The notes beneath the pieces were generated by a model that saw only the letters and a list, made by a program, of their open reading frames with translations, was not told the origin of the DNA and did no database searches. A stretch of 8,305 bases of DNA from a virus. Its lineage: Duplodnaviria; Heunggongvirae; Uroviricota; Caudoviricetes. This document shows positions 626 to 8,305 of the stretch, one piece after another. A program made the translations under genes and the position numbers. Every line of letters begins with the position of its first letter. The stretch's first letter is position 1. The stretch is from IMG/VR virus record IMGVR_UViG_2711768023_000009, one strand, 5' to 3'.

Positions 626-999
626 GGGGGGGTGCCCCTATTAAGTTGTCAAGCATGTTATGACCCCTGCGGGGTATAAAAAGTCCCGTCGCGCATCATG
701 GCGAACAGAACGTCGCAGCGTCGTCTCGCCAGGGCGATAAGCGCCTGATTGTGTCGTTTTCCCTGACTCATTTTGCGGGTGTAGTAAGCCCTGGAGAGCG
801 GATCCCTGAGCGCGGCGAAGGCCGACAGGAACAACGCCCGTTTGAGAGCTTTATTACCCCGTCGCGAGGGATGCTCACCGCGTATTGACGAGCCGGATCG
901 CCGAGTTACCGGCGCAAGGCCAGCATAAGCAGCGAGATGTGCGGCAGAGGCGAAGGCGCGGCAGGCGACCTCGGTGAGGAGTCTGGCTGCGGTCCTGAC
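626..999. repeat. Exact direct duplicate of 1054-1426 (IS110-family element 3' terminus plus 3' end of its transposase gene), abutting an N run
   Basis: Read directly: from the G-run at 626-632 through 999 the sequence is identical base for base to 1054-1426. The minus-strand ORF 658-1083 is the duplicated transposase C-terminus running into the Ns. Confidence 0.95.
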
Positions 1000-1053
1000 N
1001 NNNNNNNNNNNNNNNNNNNNNNNNNNNNNNNNNNNNNNNNNNNNNNNNNNNNN
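1000..1053. other. Assembly gap (54 N)
   Basis: Run of N. Confidence 0.99.
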
Positions 1054-1084
1054 GGGGGGTGCCCCTATTAAGTTGTCAAGCATG

Positions 1085-2281
1085 TTATGACCCCTGCGGG
1101 GTATAAAAAGTCCCGTCGCGCATCATGGCGAACAGAACGTCGCAGCGTCGTCTCGCCAGGGCGATAAGCGCCTGATTGTGTCGTTTTCCCTGACTCATTT
1201 TGCGGGTGTAGTAAGCCCTGGAGAGCGGATCCCTGAGCGCGGCGAAGGCCGACAGGAACAACGCCCGTTTGAGAGCTTTATTACCCCGTCGCGAGGGATG
1301 CTCACCGCGTATTGACGAGCCGGATCGCCGAGTTACCGGCGCAAGGCCAGCATAAGCAGCGAGATGTGCGGCAGAGGCGAAGGCGCGGCAGGCGACCTCG
1401 GTGAGGAGTCTGGCTGCGGTCCTGACACCGACTCCGGGCATACTGGTCAGGACCGGGTAAAGAGGGTGAGCAAGAACTCGCTGTTCTACCTCAAGCGCCA
1501 CCTCGTCTCTTTGCTTACGCAGCGTGATGAGCTGGAGTGCCAGACGTGGCAGTACTACGGCAGCGGCATTCGTGCCGGGAACGACGACGGTTTGTTCGGC
1601 CAGTGCCTGAGCTATGTCTGCTGCAAGGCGTTTACCCAGACGAGGCGCAAGTTTGCAGAGCTGGGCTGCCAGCTTCTTCTCACCCAGCGAAGCGAGTTTT
1701 TCTGGTGAGGGATATCGCTGGAGAAGATCGAGTACCGCCGGGTGCTCAAGTCTCGGACCGAGAACGCGCTCCAGTGCCGGATGTATCTGGGTCAGAAGGC
1801 CGCGGATACGGTTGCTGGCCTGCGTTGTCTGTGCGGCAAGATCATCATCGAAGCCGCAGAGCATGGAGAGTTCGGCGATTTGCTCGTCAGCCAGTTTCAG
1901 CGTGCGTAGCGCGTGAGGCAGGGTACGGGCAGCTTCGGCAATGATGGCAGCGTCACGAGCATCAGTTTTAGCTTCACCGGCGTGTAAGTCGGCTATGCGG
2001 CGCATGGCCAGTCCAGGGAGGTATCCGACAAGGACTCCTTCTGAGCGGGCAACGGCGACAGGTAACGCACCGATGGTAGCTGGCTGATCAACAACCAGCA
2101 GTATCTGACCATGTTGTTTCAGGTCAGATATTAGCGACCTGAGTTTGTTTTCGTCGTTGGGTAATGCTTTATCGAACAGGCGTTTACCTGAACGATTAAT
2201 GGCAACAGCGTGATGCGTATCTTTACCGACATCAACGCCGATAAAGACCTGGACGGATTCGTAATCGCTGGATTCGGTCAT
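1085..2281 (-). CDS. IS110-family transposase/recombinase (DEDD-type), 398 aa
   Basis: ORF of 398 aa. N-terminal RuvC-like DEDD motifs (VFIGVDVGKDTHHAVAI; KTDARDAAIIAEAAR) and C-terminal Transposase_20-type region (PGVGVRTAARLLTEV; YAGLAPVTRRSGSSIRG...RRGNKALKRAL with the conserved Ser). Shine-Dalgarno-like gggag lies 5 nt upstream of the ATG on the minus strand. I do not recognise the specific IS name. Confidence 0.9.
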   Translation of the reverse strand: MTESSDYESVQVFIGVDVGKDTHHAVAINRSGKRLFDKALPNDENKLRSLISDLKQHGQILLVVDQPATIGALPVAVARSEGVLVGYLPGLAMRRIADLHAGEAKTDARDAAIIAEAARTLPHALRTLKLADEQIAELSMLCGFDDDLAAQTTQASNRIRGLLTQIHPALERVLGPRLEHPAVLDLLQRYPSPEKLASLGEKKLAAQLCKLAPRLGKRLAADIAQALAEQTVVVPGTNAAAVVLPRLALQLITLRKQRDEVALEVEQRVLAHPLYPVLTSMPGVGVRTAARLLTEVACRAFASAAHLAAYAGLAPVTRRSGSSIRGEHPSRRGNKALKRALFLSAFAALRDPLSRAYYTRKMSQGKRHNQALIALARRRCDVLFAMMRDGTFYTPQGS

Positions 2282-2292
2282 TCTGTCTCCCT

Positions 2293-2512
2293 TGTATATG
2301 GGTTAACCAGATAACCACGGGGAGCAGGTACCGGCATCCACGTTACAGACGGTCCCGGCAAAAGTGCCTGACCTGACCCCTATTAGCGGTTACCAGCGCC
2401 CCACCAGACCCGGTGACATCACCCCCCGGATCATGGACGACTGGGGGCAGTAATCATGCCGGGTCTGGCTGGCTAACACCCCATTATAAGGGGTACGAAT
2501 AAAGTAACGGGG
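2293..2512 (-). ncRNA. Candidate bridge RNA / structured 5' non-coding RNA of the IS110-family element (truncated by gap)
   Basis: About 220 nt of GC-rich non-coding sequence immediately 5' of the transposase. Several hairpins are visible, e.g. cccgg-at-catg ... catg-ccggg (about 2428-2467), ggtgacatcacc (about 2418-2429) and cccc-attataa-gggg (about 2483-2497). A 9-mer cccctatta (2377-2385) also occurs at the opposite IS terminus (635-643). IS110-group elements are known to encode a bridge RNA in this position. Boundaries are unknown. Confidence 0.3.
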
Positions 2513-2996
2513 NNNNNNNNNNNNNNNNNNNNNNNNNNNNNNNNNNNNNNNNNNNNNNNNNNNNNNNNNNNNNNNNNNNNNNNNNNNNNNNNNNNNNNNN
2601 NNNNNNNNNNNNNNNNNNNNNNNNNNNNNNNNNNNNNNNNNNNNNNNNNNNNNNNNNNNNNNNNNNNNNNNNNNNNNNNNNNNNNNNNNNNNNNNNNNNN
2701 NNNNNNNNNNNNNNNNNNNNNNNNNNNNNNNNNNNNNNNNNNNNNNNNNNNNNNNNNNNNNNNNNNNNNNNNNNNNNNNNNNNNNNNNNNNNNNNNNNNN
2801 NNNNNNNNNNNNNNNNNNNNNNNNNNNNNNNNNNNNNNNNNNNNNNNNNNNNNNNNNNNNNNNNNNNNNNNNNNNNNNNNNNNNNNNNNNNNNNNNNNNN
2901 NNNNNNNNNNNNNNNNNNNNNNNNNNNNNNNNNNNNNNNNNNNNNNNNNNNNNNNNNNNNNNNNNNNNNNNNNNNNNNNNNNNNNNNNNNNNNNNN
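2513..2996. other. Assembly gap (484 N); hides the 5' end of the IS and the region just upstream of the holin
   Basis: Run of N. Confidence 0.99.
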
Positions 2997-3006
2997 GGGG
3001 CGGGAT

Positions 3007-3222
3007 ATGTATCAGATGGAAAAAATATCAACAGGCATTGCCTACGGCACCTCCGCCGGCAGTGCCGGCTACTGGTTTTTGCAGTGGTTGGATCAGGTCA
3101 GTCCATCACAGTGGGCTGCGATTGGTGTGCTGGGAAGTCTGCTTCTGGGGCTTCTGACTTATCTGACAAATCTGTATTTCAAAATAAGAGAAGACAAGCG
3201 TAAGGCTGCGAGAGGTGAATAA
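3007..3222 (+). CDS. S: Holin/antiholin, phage-21 S-like pinholin, 71 aa with dual-start motif
   Basis: 71-aa [74 protein letters not shown], near-identical from recollection to the phage 21 S pinholin. Met1 and Met4 give the 71/68-aa dual-start arrangement, and there are two hydrophobic helices and a charged C-terminus. The stop overlaps the next start (TAATG). Confidence 0.9.
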
Positions 3223-3595
3223 TGTCGCCATCATTACGCAAGGCTGTTGCAGCTGCTATTGGTGGTGGGGCTGTTGCTATAGCATCTGTGTTAATCACTG
3301 GCCCAGGTGGTAACGATGGTCTGGAAGGTGTCAGCTACATACCATACAAAGATATCATTGGTGTATGGACTGTATGTCACGGACACACCGGAAAAGACAT
3401 CATGCTCGGTAAAACGTATACCGAAGCAGAATGCAAAGCCCTCCTGAATAAAGACCTTGCCACTGTCGCCAGACAAATTAACCCGTACATCAAAGTCGAT
3501 ATACCGGAAACAACGCGCGGCGCTCTTTACTCGTTCGTTTACAACGTGGGCGCTGGCAATTTCAGAACATCGACGCTTCTTCGCAAAATAAACCA
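3222..3595 (+). CDS. R: SAR endolysin (phage-21 R-like lysozyme), 3' end lost in gap
   Basis: N-terminus [30 protein letters not shown] is a Gly/Ala-rich signal-anchor-release domain, followed by lysozyme core motifs ([10 protein letters not shown]...[11 protein letters not shown]...). Matches the phage 21 SAR endolysin from memory. Start is translationally coupled to the holin. Truncated by the N run at 3596. Confidence 0.85.
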
Positions 3596-3925
3596 NNNNN
3601 NNNNNNNNNNNNNNNNNNNNNNNNNNNNNNNNNNNNNNNNNNNNNNNNNNNNNNNNNNNNNNNNNNNNNNNNNNNNNNNNNNNNNNNNNNNNNNNNNNNN
3701 NNNNNNNNNNNNNNNNNNNNNNNNNNNNNNNNNNNNNNNNNNNNNNNNNNNNNNNNNNNNNNNNNNNNNNNNNNNNNNNNNNNNNNNNNNNNNNNNNNNN
3801 NNNNNNNNNNNNNNNNNNNNNNNNNNNNNNNNNNNNNNNNNNNNNNNNNNNNNNNNNNNNNNNNNNNNNNNNNNNNNNNNNNNNNNNNNNNNNNNNNNNN
3901 NNNNNNNNNNNNNNNNNNNNNNNNN
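3596..3925. other. Assembly gap (330 N); hides endolysin 3' end and the starts of Rz and Rz1
   Basis: Run of N. Confidence 0.99.
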
Positions 3926-4102
3926 GCAGTCTGTCAGTCAGTGCGTGAAGCCACCACCGCCTCCGGCGTGGATAATGCAACCAGCCCCCGACTGGCAGAC
4001 ACCGCTGAACGGGATTATTTCACCCTCAGAGAGCGGCTGATGACGATGCAGATGCAACTGGAAGGGGCACAGGAGTATATCCGCACTCAGTGCATTAAGT
4101 AG
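3926..4102 (+). CDS. Rz: Rz i-spanin, C-terminal part (5' end in gap)
   Basis: Frame ending at TAG 4100-4102 translates to ...AVCQSVREATTASGVDNATSPRLADTAERDYFTLRERLMTMQMQLEGAQEYIRTQCIK, closely matching the lambda Rz C-terminus as I recall it. Confidence 0.85.
   Translation, partial: AVCQSVREATTASGVDNATSPRLADTAERDYFTLRERLMTMQMQLEGAQEYIRTQCIK
3927..4040 (+). CDS. Rz1: Rz1 o-spanin, C-terminal part, embedded in the +1 frame of Rz (5' end in gap)
   Basis: Translation QSVSQCVKPPPPPAWIMQPAPDWQTPLNGIISPSESG is almost identical to the lambda Rz1 C-terminus, including the proline-rich segment. The lipobox cysteine would lie in the gap. Confidence 0.8.
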   Translation, partial: QSVSQCVKPPPPPAWIMQPAPDWQTPLNGIISPSESG

Positions 4103-4144: not shown

Positions 4145-4495
4145 ATGCCATCACTAATCCCACGTGCCTGCCGTAAGCGTGGATGTGCAGGTACAACCAC
4201 AGACAGTTCGGGTTACTGCGATAAACATCGCGGTGAAGGCTGGGTGCAGCACCAGCGCGGACTGAGCCGCCACCAGCGTGGCTATGGCTCAAAATGGACG
4301 GTGATTCGTGCCCGTATTCTGAAGCGCGATAAAGGTCTGTGTCAGTTGTGTCTGCGTGTCGGTGTGGTGAGCGAGGCGAAAACCGTCGACCACATCATCC
4401 CGAAAGCGCATGGCGGAACAGACGCAGACAGCAACCTGCAGAGTCTGTGCTGGCCCTGCCATAAAGCGAAAACAGCGCGCGAACGAATCCGGTGA
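4145..4495 (+). CDS. Phage HNH endonuclease (terminase-associated, HK97 gp74-like), 116 aa
   Basis: HNH motif DHIIPKAHGG...N...LCWPCH plus an N-terminal Cys cluster (CRKRGCAG...YCDKH). Shine-Dalgarno gaggt 6 nt upstream of the ATG. Sits immediately upstream of the terminase genes, as in HK97-type packaging modules. Confidence 0.85.
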   Translation: MPSLIPRACRKRGCAGTTTDSSGYCDKHRGEGWVQHQRGLSRHQRGYGSKWTVIRARILKRDKGLCQLCLRVGVVSEAKTVDHIIPKAHGGTDADSNLQSLCWPCHKAKTARERIR

Positions 4496-4616
4496 TAATT
4501 ATTCTCACTTGTAGGGAGGGGCGGGGCAAATCCCTGTGACCTGACGTCTTCCGGACTGCCCGCCCCATCGTTTTTTTATACCCGCGAAAAATGAAATTTA
4601 ACCAGGAGTGCCGCAT
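4496..4616. promoter_or_regulatory. Putative cos (packaging) site region between the HNH and small terminase genes
   Basis: In HK97-like phages cos lies between the HNH gene and terS. The region carries a GC-rich imperfect dyad ggggcggggc (4518-4527) / gcccgcccc (4558-4566) followed by ttttttt, then an A/T-rich block (cgaaaaatgaaattta). The segment aggggcggggcaaatcc loosely resembles the lambda cosN core GGGCGGCGACCT. Exact cleavage site is not determinable from sequence. Confidence 0.3.
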
Positions 4617-5111
4617 ATGGCTGGAACGGCGGGGCGTTCCGGGCGTCGCCCCAAGCCAACGGCGCGCAAGGCGCTGGCCGGAAACCCCGGCAAGCGAGCC
4701 CTGAACAAAGATGAACCTGTTTTTACGCCCATCAAAGGTGTTGAGCCACCAGAGTGGTTCGCTGAAGAAGATCTCCCTCTCGCCACGATCATGTGGCAAC
4801 TGACAACCAAAGAACTCTGCGGTCAGGGCCTGCTGTGCGTGACTGACCTGGCGGTACTTGAGCGGTGGTGCGTGGCCTATGAGTTCTGGCGACGTGCCGT
4901 GAAAAATATTGCCATACAGGGCAACACCATCACCGGTGCAATGGGCGGCAGGGTCAAAAATCCGGAGCTGACCGCCAAAAAAGAACAGGAGTCCGAGATG
5001 AGCAGCACGGGGGCAATGCTCGGACTCGACCCCAGCAGCCGCCAGCGTCTGATTGGCCTGGCGGGGCAGAAGAAAGCCACTAACCCGTTTCTGAAAATTA
5101 TCGAATCATGA
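4617..5111 (+). CDS. Terminase small subunit (P27/HK97-type)
   Basis: ATG at 4617 is preceded by aggag (4604-4608); the ORF track's 4608 start is an in-frame GTG. The stop overlaps the large terminase start (ATGA at 5108-5111), indicating translational coupling. Size (about 164 aa) and position fit HK97/P27-family small terminases. Confidence 0.8.
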
Positions 5112-6841
5112 GCCGGAAATCTTACCCCAACGTAAATGCTGCAAATCAGTATGCCCGGGATGTCGTGCGCGGAAAGATTGTTGCCTGCCAGTTTGTGATT
5201 CAGGCCTGCCAGCGCCATCTTGATGACCTGATGGCGGAAAAAAGTAAGTCGTTTCGTTACCGCTTCGACAAGGACCTGGCTGAACGGGCCGCGAAATTTA
5301 TTCAGCTGTTGCCGCACACCAAGGGGGAGTGGGCATTCAAACGGATGCCCATCACGCTGGAGCCGTGGCAGCTATTTGTGATCTGCTGTGCGTTTGGCTG
5401 GGTCAATAAAGGCACCCGGTTGCGCCGCTTCCGGGAGGTGTACACCGAAATCCCCCGTAAGAACGGCAAATCAGCAATCTCTGCCGGTGTTGCCCTGTAT
5501 TGTTTTGCCTGTGATAACGAGTTTGGCGCGGAAGTGTATTCCGGTGCCACGACAGAGAAACAGGCGTGGGAAGTCTTTCGCCCGGCGCGACTGATGTGTA
5601 AACGCACACCCATGCTGACGGAAGCGTTCGGGATTGAGGTTAACGCCTCAAACATGAACCGTCCGGAGGATGGCGCGCGGTTTGAACCGCTGATCGGCAA
5701 CCCAGGTGATGGTTCATCACCCCACTGTGCCGTGGTTGATGAATATCACGAGCATGCCACCGATGCGCTTTATACCACAATGCTTACCGGGATGGGGGCG
5801 CGACGTCAGCCACTGATGTGGGCCATCACCACCGCCGGGTACAACATTGAGGGGCCGTGCTACGACAAGCGGCGGGAAGTCATCGAGATGCTCAACGGCT
5901 CGGTGCCTAACGATGAACTGTTCGGGATCATCTATACCGTTGATGAAGGTGACGACTGGACCGGCCCGCAGGTGCTGGAAAAAGCCAATCCAAATATTGG
6001 CGTGTCGGTTTATCGCGAATTTTTGTTAAGTCAGCAGCAGCGTGCGAAAAATAACGCCCGTCTGGCAAACGTCTTTAAAACAAAACACCTCAATATCTGG
6101 GTGTCGGCGCGTTCGGCGTATTTCAACTTGGTGAGCTGGCAGAGCTGCGAGGATAAATCACTGACCCTTGAGCAGTTCGAGGGGCAGCCGTGCATTCTGG
6201 CCTTTGACCTGGCGCGTAAGCTGGATATGAACAGCATGGCGCGACTTTATACCCGCGAGATTGACGGTAAAACGCATTACTACAGTGTGGCCCCGCGTTT
6301 CTGGGTACCGTATGACACGGTGTACAGCGTCGAGAAAAATGAAGATCGACGGACAGCCGAACGCTTTCAGAAATGGGTGGAAATGGGCGTTCTGACCGTT
6401 ACCGATGGTGCGGAGGTGGATTATCGCTACATCCTCGAGGAGGCCAAAGCGGCGAACAAAATCAGCCCGGTCAGTGAGTCACCCATCGACCCCTTCGGGG
6501 CGACCGGGTTGTCACATGACCTTGCTGATGAAGACCTGAATCCCGTCACTATCGTCCAGAACTTCACCAATATGTCCGATCCGATGAAAGAGCTGGAAGC
6601 AGCGATTGAATCGGGACGTTTTCATCATGACGGCAATCCCATCATGACCTGGTGTATCGGCAACGTGGTCGGCAAAAACATGCCGGGTAACGATGATGTG
6701 GTGAAACCCGTCAAAGAGCAGGCGGAAAACAAAATCGATGGTGCAGTTGCGCTGATTATGGCGGTTGGCAGAGCCATGCTGTACGAGAAAGAAGACACGC
6801 TGTCTGACCACATTGAGTCCTACGGGATCCGCTCGCTTTAA
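5108..6841 (+). CDS. Terminase large subunit (HK97 family), 577 aa
   Basis: Long ORF directly coupled to the small terminase gene. The sequence is typical of HK97-family large terminases, with an N-terminal ATPase region and a C-terminal nuclease region (e.g. [22 protein letters not shown]). Called from recalled family similarity. Confidence 0.92.
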
Positions 6842-6852
6842 CTGAGGTAATT

Positions 6853-7035
6853 ATGATCATGCTGATTCTCGCGCCTCTGGTGGGCGTGCTGGGTGCGCTT
6901 TTGCTGGCGTATGGTGCCTGGCTGATTTATCCCCCGGCGGGTTTTGTTGTTGCCGGGGCGCTGTGCCTGTTCTGGTCGTGGCTGGTGGCGCGATATCTCG
7001 ACCGTACACGGCAGTCTGTCGGCGGAGGTAAATAG
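6853..7035 (+). CDS. Hypothetical small membrane protein (60 aa, two predicted transmembrane helices)
   Basis: [63 protein letters not shown]. Shine-Dalgarno gaggt at 6844-6848. Codon usage resembles neighbouring genes. It fills the terminase-portal intergenic space, and its 3' end carries the GGAGGT ribosome-binding site for the portal start at 7035. Confidence 0.45.
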
Positions 7036-8191
7036 TGTTCTTTTCGGGATTATTTCAACGAAAAAGCGATGTGCCGGTGACCACGCCAGCAGAACTGCTG
7101 ATGCTATCGGGCTGTCATACGACACCTATACCGGAAAGCGGATCAGTAGCCAGCGGGCCATGCGCCTGACGGCGGTCTATTCTTGCGTCAGGGTGCTGGC
7201 AGAGTCTGTTGGTATGCTGCCCTGCAGTCTCTACAAAATCAGCGGTACCCTGAAAACACGGGCGGTGGATGAACGACTGCATAAGTTGGTTTCGGCAAAA
7301 CCTAATGGCTACATGACACCGCAGGAATTCTGGGAGCTGGTTATTGTCTGCCTGTGTCTACGGGGGAATTTTTACGCCTACAAGGTAAAGGCACTGGGAG
7401 AAGTGGTGGAGCTTCTTCCGATAGATCCGGGCTGTGTGGAACCGAAGCTGAACAGCCAGTGGCAGCCGGTTTATCAGGTGACGTTTCCGGATGGTTCCGT
7501 GGATGTGTTGACCCAGAATGAAATCTGGCATGTGCGCACCCTGACGCTGGATGGACTTGTCGGGCTGAATCCCATTGCGTATGCGCGTGAGGCCATTTCA
7601 CTGGCAGCGGCAACCGAGGAGCACGGTGCCAGGTTGTTTAGTAATGGTGCGGTGACATCCGGTGTGTTGCGTACGGAACAAAAGCTCACGCCGGATGCTT
7701 ACGAGCGTCTGAAGAAAGATTTTGAGGAGTGTCACACGGGGCTTGGCAATGCTCACCGCCCGATGATTCTGGAAATGGGGCTGGACTGGAAGTCGATGGC
7801 GCTGAACGCCGAGGACAGTCAGTTCCTGGAAACCCGCAAGTTTCAGCTGGAAGAAATCTGTCGTCTGTTCCGGGTGCCGTTGCACATGGTGCAGAACACC
7901 GATCGCGCCACCTTCAACAATATCGAAGAGCTGGGGCTGGGATTTATCAACTATTCACTGGTGCCGTATCTGACCCGCATCGAACAGCGGATCAACACCG
8001 GACTGGTACGAAAAAGTAAGCAGGGCGTTTATTACGCCAAATTTAACGCCGGGGCGTTACTGCGCGGGGATATGAAGTCCCGTTTTGAAGCCTACGCCAC
8101 CGGGATCAACTGGGGAATTTACTCTTCCAATGACTGCCGCGACCTGGAAGATATGAATCCGCGTCCCGGTGGTGTAATGCCGATCAGTTAA
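7035..8191 (+). CDS. Portal protein (HK97 family) with an apparent one-base frameshift near the 5' end (possible pseudogene or sequencing error)
   Basis: GTG at 7035 is preceded by a strong Shine-Dalgarno (ggaggt 7024-7029, 5-nt spacer) and opens a portal-like N-terminus MFFSGLFQRKSDVPVTTPAELLMLSG..., which hits TGA at 7167-7169. The rest of the portal (…YDTYTGKRISSQRAMRLTAVYSCVRVLAESVGMLPCSLYK… to stop 8189-8191) is in the -1 frame. One extra G in the run at 7109-7111 would fuse them into a 385-aa protein. The ORF track's 6944 start overlaps the small ORF and translates to implausible Cys/Arg/Trp-rich sequence. Confidence 0.8.
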
Positions 8192-8224
8192 GGATCAGTT
8201 GACCGATCCAGTGGCTGTGTAAGA

Positions 8225-8259
8225 ATCCGGAAACGCTCACTTGTTTCCGGATTTTTTTA
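8225..8259 (+). terminator. Rho-independent terminator downstream of the portal gene
   Basis: 10-bp stem atccggaaac (8225-8234) / gtttccggat (8243-8252), 8-nt loop, followed by ttttttt (8253-8259). Oriented for the + strand only. Confidence 0.6.
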
Positions 8260-8305
8260 TGCACATTGGACAGGCTCTTGATCTGGTATCCCGTTACGAT
8301 TCTCT

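What the first reader, a model, noticed from the sequence alone, without database searches (positions are those of the whole stretch)
7035..7170. Portal gene split by a one-base frame shift near its N-terminus
The portal-like N-terminus with a strong ribosome-binding site (GTG 7035) runs for 44 codons and stops at 7167, while the remaining roughly 340 codons of the portal continue in the -1 frame. A single missing G in the run at 7109-7111 (tcgggctg to tcggggctg) would give a continuous protein reading ...AELLMLSGLSYDTYTGKRISSQRAMRLTAVYSC.... This is either a homopolymer sequencing error in a draft assembly or a genuine inactivating mutation, which would make this a defective, non-packaging prophage. 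The exact indel position is my inference; it could lie anywhere between about 7095 and 7160.
Basis: partly seen in the sequence, partly recalled or inferred. Interest (0 to 1): 0.5.

Follow-up and report, generated by a model that had tools for sequence, protein, structure and literature searches.

The report
Frameshifted, IS4-cut prophage portal pseudogene
The portal gene of a decayed prophage, found in identical form in Shigella sonnei genomes, really has lost one base near its start and is also cut by an IS4 insertion near its end, so it is an ordinary dead phage gene and not a sequencing error.

Summary
A 44-codon ORF (GTG 7035 to TGA 7167-7169) carries the native portal start, and the rest of the portal continues in the -1 frame.

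Intact relatives (phages SfIV and SfII, E. coli prophages, K-12 e14 BeeE) all start at the same GTG and read ...AELADAIGLSYD... in one frame. The window lacks one G of an ancestral CTG-GCT, at 7097/7098. The GGG at 7109-7111 is unchanged. The predicted intact sequence GAACTGGCTGATGCT exists in two natural contigs.

It is not a sequencing error. The same 136-mer is present in 18 distinct NCBI assemblies, including the S. sonnei Ss046 chromosome, and the deletion is also in 6 IMG/VR contigs.

A second lesion was missed. IS4 is inserted at 8175 (12-bp target GTCCCGGTGGTG) and removes the last 33 portal codons. In the complete chromosomes sampled, the IS4 is followed by host genes or another IS, not by head and tail genes.

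No slippery heptamer is present and no relative is split, so programmed frameshifting is very unlikely.

Verdict: a real, lineage-fixed pseudogene in a prophage remnant of the e14/SfII/SfIV kind. This is a known kind of decay and of low interest.

The parts
5108..6841 (+). Large terminase subunit gene, intact, 577 aa. It provides context and served as the anchor for finding the same prophage elsewhere.
   Evidence: ORF. The identical product is indexed in 4305 blocks of the collection, with TerL_ATPase and TerL_nuclease Pfam domains.
6853..7035 (+). ymfR-like small (60 aa) gene. Its TAG stop shares one base (7035) with the portal GTG.
   Evidence: Annotated 'ymfR: protein YmfR' or 'membrane protein' under the homologous DNA.
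7024..7028 (+). Shine-Dalgarno sequence GGAGG of the portal gene, 6 nt upstream of the GTG start.
   Evidence: Sequence. It is invariant in SfIV, SfII and the E. coli relatives.
7035..7169 (+). Truncated product of the native portal start: 21 native codons ([21 protein letters not shown]), then 23 out-of-frame codons, then TGA.
   Evidence: The same start is annotated in SfIV, SfII, A36, C311 and K-12 beeE.
7097..7098 (+). Site of the 1-base deletion. One G of ancestral CTG|GCT is missing at the codon 21/22 boundary.
   Evidence: DNA alignments. The intact version GCAGAACTGGCTGATGCTATC is found in L019 and L030.
7098..8174 (+). Remainder of the portal coding sequence (ancestral codons 22-380) in the -1 frame relative to the start. 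It contains the full Phage_portal / portal_HK97 core.
   Evidence: PF04860 at 359.8 bits. TIGR01537 at 263.7 bits covering profile positions 3-343 of 343. 91% identity to the SfIV portal.
7160..8191 (+). The 343-codon ORF that gene callers report (ATG 7160). Its last 5 codons and its stop lie inside IS4. There is no good SD upstream. The ATG lies 5 nt upstream of the stop of the 44-codon ORF.
   Evidence: The exact product is indexed in 1695 blocks of the collection.
8163..8174 (+). IS4 target sequence GTCCCGGTGGTG, the left copy of a 12-bp target-site duplication.
   Evidence: In L036 the same 12-mer directly follows the right end of IS4 and continues into the portal 3' end.
8175..8305 (+). 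Left end of IS4: terminal inverted repeat TAATGCCGATCAGTTAAG..., with the insG start at 8259. It runs off the end of the window.
   Evidence: 100% identical to DNA annotated 'insG: IS4-like element IS4 family transposase'. A 1426-bp element with inverted ends in L007. Transposase matches NF033592.

Best explanation
This is the portal gene of an HK97-type head module. It belongs to an e14/SfII/SfIV-like prophage whose sequence is identical to that in Shigella sonnei, and it is a pseudogene with two independent lesions.

(1) One G was lost from the GG at the codon 21/22 boundary, CTG GCT to CTG CT, at window 7097/7098. Ribosomes starting at the native GTG 7035, which has a good GGAGG site, read 21 correct residues and then 23 wrong ones. 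They stop at TGA 7167.

(2) IS4 transposed into codon 381 at window 8175, duplicating GTCCCGGTGGTG. This removed the last 33 residues.

Both lesions are in every assembly and contig examined that carries this allele. In the complete S. sonnei chromosomes sampled, the DNA beyond the IS4 is no longer the head-tail module. The locus is therefore a non-packaging remnant regardless of the frameshift.

Shown: the deletion, its position, its reproducibility, the IS4 and its target duplication, and the missing downstream genes at this locus.
Inferred: that no functional portal is made, and that the deletion arose by simple replication slippage or error.
For: - All intact relatives are 413 aa in one frame and start at the same GTG: E. 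coli A36, ESC818, STEC316, DCE7, C311 and CE0007a, and phages SfIV and SfII. K-12 e14 BeeE has the same start.
- DNA alignments place a single 1-nt gap at column CTG-GC.
- The exact predicted intact sequence occurs in metagenome contig L019 and IMG/VR contig L030, and encodes AELADAIGLSYD.
- The 136-mer 7035-7170 is exact in 20 of 20 loci, representing 18 distinct NCBI assemblies. These include CP000038.1, which is S. sonnei Ss046 (PMC5447701), and CP022457.1, which is S. sonnei 2015C-3566 (PMC6456863). Six IMG/VR contigs carry the deletion.
- IS4 evidence.
- The right flank of IS4 is raiA-pheL-pheA or another IS.
Against: - The window is a gapped draft scaffold with three N runs, so on its own it would be weak evidence. 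The case rests on the other assemblies.
- The organism was checked for only two accessions. The rest are assumed to be S. sonnei.
- Both lesions lie just outside the conserved Pfam/TIGRFAM core. ATG 7160 lies 5 nt upstream of the stop of the upstream ORF, so some expression of a core fragment by reinitiation cannot be excluded.
- One scaffold (L036) shows the head and tail genes still attached beyond the IS4. 'Remnant' may therefore not hold for every carrier, or the other half may sit elsewhere in S. sonnei chromosomes after an IS4-mediated inversion.
Confidence: 0.94

Rival explanations
1. Sequencing or assembly error: the real genome has an intact reading frame at this point.
For: The window is a draft scaffold with three N runs and a 373-bp stretch duplicated across a gap, so local quality is not high.
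Against: The identical deletion is in 18 independent NCBI assemblies, including complete chromosomes, and in 6 IMG/VR contigs. The site is a GG dinucleotide, not a homopolymer run. The longest runs in the ORF are T4 and A5, and both are elsewhere.
Confidence: 0.02
2. The split is functional: a portal, or a portal core, is still produced. One route is a programmed -1 ribosomal frameshift. The other is termination-reinitiation at ATG 7160, which lies 5 nt upstream of the TGA of the 44-codon ORF. The product might interfere with related superinfecting phages.
For: The -1 frame is open across the whole overlap. The ATG 7160 / TGA 7167 arrangement is the kind that permits coupling. The 343-aa ORF keeps profile positions 2-321 of 321 of PF04860.
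Against: There is no X XXY YYZ heptamer in 7035-7169. No relative has a two-frame arrangement, and every portal examined that covers this site, apart from this allele, is in one frame. Homology to the solved HK97 portal begins at residue 27, upstream of M43. The C-terminus is destroyed by IS4 and the partner head genes are absent at the locus.
Confidence: 0.03
3. There is no frameshift at all: the portal naturally starts at ATG 7160 and the 44-codon ORF is a separate small gene.
For: The TIGR01537 profile begins matching at residue 39, and gene callers report the 343-aa product.
Against: In all relatives the first 42 codons are in frame with the rest. They are conserved at the protein level even where the DNA has diverged, as in DCE7, which uses ATG rather than GTG. 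Residues 22-44 of the window's short ORF match nothing in these proteins, whereas the -1 frame does.
Confidence: 0.01

Closest known systems
Portal proteins of Shigella flexneri serotype-converting phages SfIV (YP_008766867.1) and SfII (YP_008318482.1)
   Same: Same gene order: TerS, TerL, small membrane protein, portal. Same GTG start overlapping the upstream stop. 91% amino-acid identity over residues 1-380 once one G is restored.
   Different: Those genes are intact 413-codon genes in complete phage genome records. This one has a 1-nt deletion at codon 22 and an IS4 in codon 381.
beeE, the portal fragment of the E. coli K-12 cryptic prophage e14 (with ymfN' and ymfR)
   Same: Same module (terminase, ymfR, portal) and the same N-terminus, [30 protein letters not shown]. 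It is likewise a decayed portal in a cryptic prophage.
   Different: In e14 the portal frame is intact at codon 22 but the portal-homologous sequence ends after about 134 codons, next to the jayE pseudogene. Here the damage is a frameshift plus an IS4 insertion.
HK97 portal protein gp3 (PDB 8cez / 8fql), family PF04860 / TIGR01537
   Same: Clear family membership: E = 9e-52 to 8cez aligned from residue 27, and TIGR01537 at 263.7 bits against a cut-off of 112.
   Different: The HK97 protein is a distant relative. The sequence here cannot be translated as one polypeptide.
IS4 (insG) insertions in E. coli and Shigella genomes
   Same: The 131 bases in the window are 100% identical to IS4. In L007 the element is 1426 bp with terminal inverted repeats. 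A 12-bp target duplication is present.
   Different: Nothing unusual. The right flank differs between genomes, indicating later IS-associated rearrangement.

Membership tests
HK97-family phage portal protein (PF04860 / TIGR01537) | Profile match above the curated cut-off over the whole domain | tested here: met
   PF04860 at 359.8 bits (cut-off 39.1), profile positions 2-321 of 321.
HK97-family phage portal protein (PF04860 / TIGR01537) | Position in a head module directly after the large terminase and before the prohead protease and major capsid genes | tested here: inconclusive
   The upstream half is met: TerS, TerL, ymfR, portal. Downstream is IS4 in the window. Protease and capsid follow in the relatives and in L036, but not in complete S. 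sonnei chromosomes.
HK97-family phage portal protein (PF04860 / TIGR01537) | One uninterrupted ORF of about 413 codons (a functional gene rather than a pseudogene) | tested here: not met
   A 1-nt deletion at 7097/7098 and IS4 at 8175. It is a pseudogene derived from this family.
Programmed -1 ribosomal frameshift | The two-frame arrangement is conserved in homologues | tested here: not met
   Every portal examined that covers this site, apart from this allele, is in a single frame.
Programmed -1 ribosomal frameshift | Slippery heptamer X XXY YYZ within the frame overlap | tested here: not met
   None in 7035-7169 in any phase.
Programmed -1 ribosomal frameshift | Downstream stimulatory RNA structure | not tested
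   Not pursued, because the two preceding features failed.
Homopolymer sequencing error | The indel lies in a homopolymer run and varies between independent assemblies | tested here: not met
   The site is a GG dinucleotide. The same sequence is present in 18 NCBI assemblies and the deletion in 6 IMG/VR contigs.
IS4 insertion sequence | IS4 transposase, terminal inverted repeats, about 1.4 kb length, and a target-site duplication of 11-13 bp (the range is from memory) | tested here: met
   NF033592 at 303.8 bits. insG DNA 100% identical. Inverted ends 1426 bp apart, outer end to outer end, in L007. The 12-bp GTCCCGGTGGTG is on both sides, in the window and in L036.

The most novel reading that the evidence does not exclude
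The native start, with its strong ribosome-binding site, is kept, and the 44-codon ORF ends 5 nt after ATG 7160. Termination-reinitiation could therefore still yield a 343-residue portal core lacking its N- and C-terminal tails. Such a fragment, 91% identical to the portals of SfI/SfII/SfIV-type phages, could poison head assembly of related superinfecting phages and so act as a domesticated exclusion factor. Nothing here tests expression or phenotype. The perfect conservation is equally explained if the carriers are closely related, which all the identical copies suggest.
Probability: 0.02. Interest if true: 0.5.

Novelty: already known. Interest (0 to 1): 0.08.

Why it matters
The practical value is for annotation. 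This locus should be marked as one portal pseudogene (frameshifted and IS4-disrupted). It should not be annotated as a 343-aa or 414-aa 'portal protein', as several public gene calls have it. Prophage-completeness tools should not count it as a working portal. It is one more documented case of prophage decay by a point indel plus IS insertion in Shigella. It opens no new biological question.

Tried and rejected
- **Species-representative genomes.** Two exact-pattern scans, one allowing both the deleted and the restored version and one for the restored allele only, found nothing. The likely reason is that the collection holds one genome per species, so no S. sonnei genome is in it.
- **E. coli complete genomes.** These hold no close allele. 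The best match is about 94% identical and all matches are intact.
- **Apparent lysozyme-Rz1 fusion.** A 272-aa ORF at 3222-4040 was looked up. It turned out to be an artefact of translating through a 330-base N run.
- **Right-hand IS4/portal junction.** Searching IMG/VR for it found only L036. A 63-mer from the portal 3' end found, apart from L036 itself, 15 other portal loci about 88% identical to the window (13 shown intact at the site), and not the missing half of this prophage.
- **L036 as a witness.** It looked like a frameshift without IS4. The contig has an N at 2819, an inverted hairpin loop at the IS4 edge, and a 386-bp stretch duplicated with 3 mismatches. The IS4-free copy is therefore probably a scaffold chimera, and I do not rely on it for the order of events.
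- **Large protein-database searches and structure prediction.** Not used. DNA-level comparison answered the question.

Full report
**What is in the window**

The right-hand part of the window is the start of a phage late operon on the + strand. The genes, in order:
- HNH endonuclease, 4145-4495.
- Small terminase of the P27 type, 4608-5111.
- Large terminase, 5108-6841.
- A 60-codon ymfR-like gene, 6853-7035.
- A portal gene.

The native portal start is GTG 7035. It is preceded by GGAGG at 7024-7028 and shares base 7035 with the TAG stop of the ymfR-like gene. From that start the frame closes after 44 codons at TGA 7167-7169. The -1 frame is open from 6944 to 8191 and carries the Phage_portal domain.

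**Where the shift is**

Homologous DNA in complete E. coli genomes is 84-94% identical over this stretch. There it is annotated terminase large subunit, YmfR or hypothetical protein, then a 413-aa phage portal protein that starts at the position equivalent to 7035. The closest sequenced phages include the Shigella flexneri serotype-converting phages SfIV, SfII and SfI, at about 94-95% DNA identity, with the same start. The K-12 e14 fragment BeeE has the same N-terminus.

DNA alignments show exactly one 1-base gap:
- Relatives read GAG CTG GCG/GCA GAT/GAG GCT ATC GGG.
- The window reads GAA CTG -CT GAT GCT ATC GGG.

The lost base is one of the two Gs of an ancestral CTG|GCT, next to G7097.

That ancestral sequence is not hypothetical. 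GCAGAACTGGCTGATGCTATCGGGCTGTC occurs in a metagenome contig (L019) and in an IMG/VR contig (L030). The L019 portal was translated and reads ...TTPAELADAIGLSYDTYTGK....

With that G restored, the window encodes 380 residues colinear with the SfIV portal, 91% identical and without gaps. The protein alignment shows the handover directly. Frame 1 matches residues 1-21, and the -1 frame matches from residue 22 on.

**Error or mutation**

The window itself is a gapped draft scaffold. It has N runs at 1000-1053, 2513-2996 and 3596-3925, and a 373-bp stretch repeated across the first gap. A sequencing error was therefore a fair suspicion.

The other assemblies rule it out:
- The exact large-terminase product is indexed in 4305 blocks of the public assembly collection.
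- The 343-aa portal ORF is indexed in 1695 blocks.
- I read 20 places, representing 18 distinct NCBI assemblies. alone includes 7 complete chromosomes. All 20 contain the exact 136-mer 7035-7170.
- One is CP000038.1, S. sonnei Ss046 (PMC5447701). Another is CP022457.1, S. sonnei 2015C-3566 (PMC6456863).
- Six IMG/VR contigs carry the same deletion.
- The site is a GG dinucleotide. The only longer runs in the short ORF are T4 and A5, located elsewhere.

This is a real mutation, present in every copy of this allele examined.

**A second lesion**

Homology to intact portals stops at 8174. From 8175 the sequence is the left end of IS4:
- It is 100% identical to DNA annotated insG / IS4 in E. coli.
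- The element is 1426 bp with inverted ends in locus L007.
- The transposase matches NF033592.

IS4 interrupts codon 381 of 413. The apparent ending ...PGGVMPIS* is read from the IS.

In one related contig (L036), the right end of IS4 is followed by GTCCCGGTGGTG and then by the rest of the portal. After that come an S78 prohead protease, major capsid, connector, head-completion, tail-tube and tape-measure genes. The insertion was therefore a simple transposition with a 12-bp target duplication, window 8163-8174.

In the complete S. sonnei chromosomes, the IS4 is followed instead by raiA-pheL-pheA (L007, L008) or is itself cut by an IS3-family element. At this locus the head-tail module is gone. 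Whether it was deleted or moved elsewhere by inversion could not be checked with the collections available.

**How it works, or rather does not**

Ribosomes loading at the good native site make a 44-residue peptide, of which 21 residues are native and 23 are nonsense.

I tested the idea of programmed recoding. There is no X XXY YYZ heptamer anywhere in the overlap. Every portal examined that covers this site, apart from this allele, is in a single frame.

One residual possibility is termination-reinitiation. ATG 7160 lies 5 nt upstream of the TGA of the short ORF, and the 343-codon ORF still contains the whole Pfam domain. Three points count against a useful product:
- Homology to the solved HK97 portal already begins at residue 27.
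- The C-terminal 33 residues are missing.
- There is no capsid gene next to it.

I rate this possibility at a few per cent.

**Comparison with what is known**

The gene belongs to the HK97 portal family. TIGR01537 scores 263.7 bits against a cut-off of 112, and PDB 8cez matches at E = 9e-52. The prophage belongs to the e14/SfII/SfIV group. K-12 e14 shows the same module decayed in a different way: a chimeric terminase fragment, ymfR, and the 157-aa BeeE portal fragment.

Inactivation of prophage genes by point indels and IS elements in Shigella is a familiar pattern (my general knowledge). This exact sequence has been public since at least the Ss046 genome. Public gene calls are inconsistent: a 343-aa product, a 414-aa product from an upstream TTG, or no product at all. 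That is the only practical issue.

**Verdict**

The finding is ordinary and already known in kind, and its interest is low.

Noticed in passing
window 8175-8305 (target copy at 8163-8174): The left end of IS4 is inserted in codon 381 of the portal gene. The window ends inside the IS. In L036 the same 12-mer, GTCCCGGTGGTG, flanks the other end of the IS.
   Followed up: yes
window 1000-1053, 2513-2996, 3596-3925: There are three runs of N (54, 484 and 330 bases), so the window is a gapped scaffold or is masked. ORFs that cross them are artefacts, for example the 272-aa 'lysozyme-Rz1 fusion' at 3222-4040 and the 213-aa ORF at 2390-3031 on the minus strand.
   Followed up: yes
window about 614-2512 (transposase ORF 1085-2281, minus strand): An IS110-family element (ISEc20-like, 99.6% identical to E. 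coli O145 copies; NF033542 'IS110 family RNA-guided transposase') lies between a small ORF and the holin gene. It is absent from this site in the sampled loci that cover it, L004-L011 (window 631 joins 2997 there). Its right edge is hidden in an N run.
   Followed up: partly
window 627-999 and 1054-1426: A 373-bp stretch of the IS110-like element is exactly repeated on either side of the 54-N gap. This gives a spurious extra 141-aa transposase C-terminal ORF (658-1083, minus strand). It is most likely a scaffolding artefact.
   Followed up: partly
L036 2433-2860 and 4197-4582: This IMG/VR scaffold carries the same frameshift. It has an apparently IS4-free portal 3' end, then an N, then IS4 starting at an inverted hairpin loop, then the same 386 bp again with 3 mismatches. 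It is probably a chimera with a second related prophage or a gap-closing artefact. It has 3 SNPs against the window across 5731-8172, one of which gives P instead of S at portal residue 365.
   Followed up: partly
L023, L027, L028 (large terminase gene): In some assemblies the large terminase is called as two pieces (194 + 341 aa) or as 498 aa instead of 577 aa. These are either further strain-specific decay or assembly errors.
   Followed up: no
L004-L006, L010, L020-L024 (about 1.1 kb into IS4): In most complete chromosomes the IS4 transposase gene is itself truncated (374-380 aa instead of 442) by an IS3-family element on the opposite strand. Only some strains (L007, L008, L025) keep a whole IS4, and in L007 and L008 raiA-pheL-pheA is seen to follow it. 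The locus is a nest of IS-mediated rearrangements.
   Followed up: partly
window 7035-7110 versus E. coli relatives: Over 1300 E. coli records match the portal only from window 7109 onward. Their first 25 codons or so are strongly diverged at the DNA level but similar as protein (for example DCE7: MFFQGLFQRKNNTPVTAPGMLAEEVGLSYD). A mosaic boundary in this portal family therefore falls close to the deletion site.
   Followed up: partly
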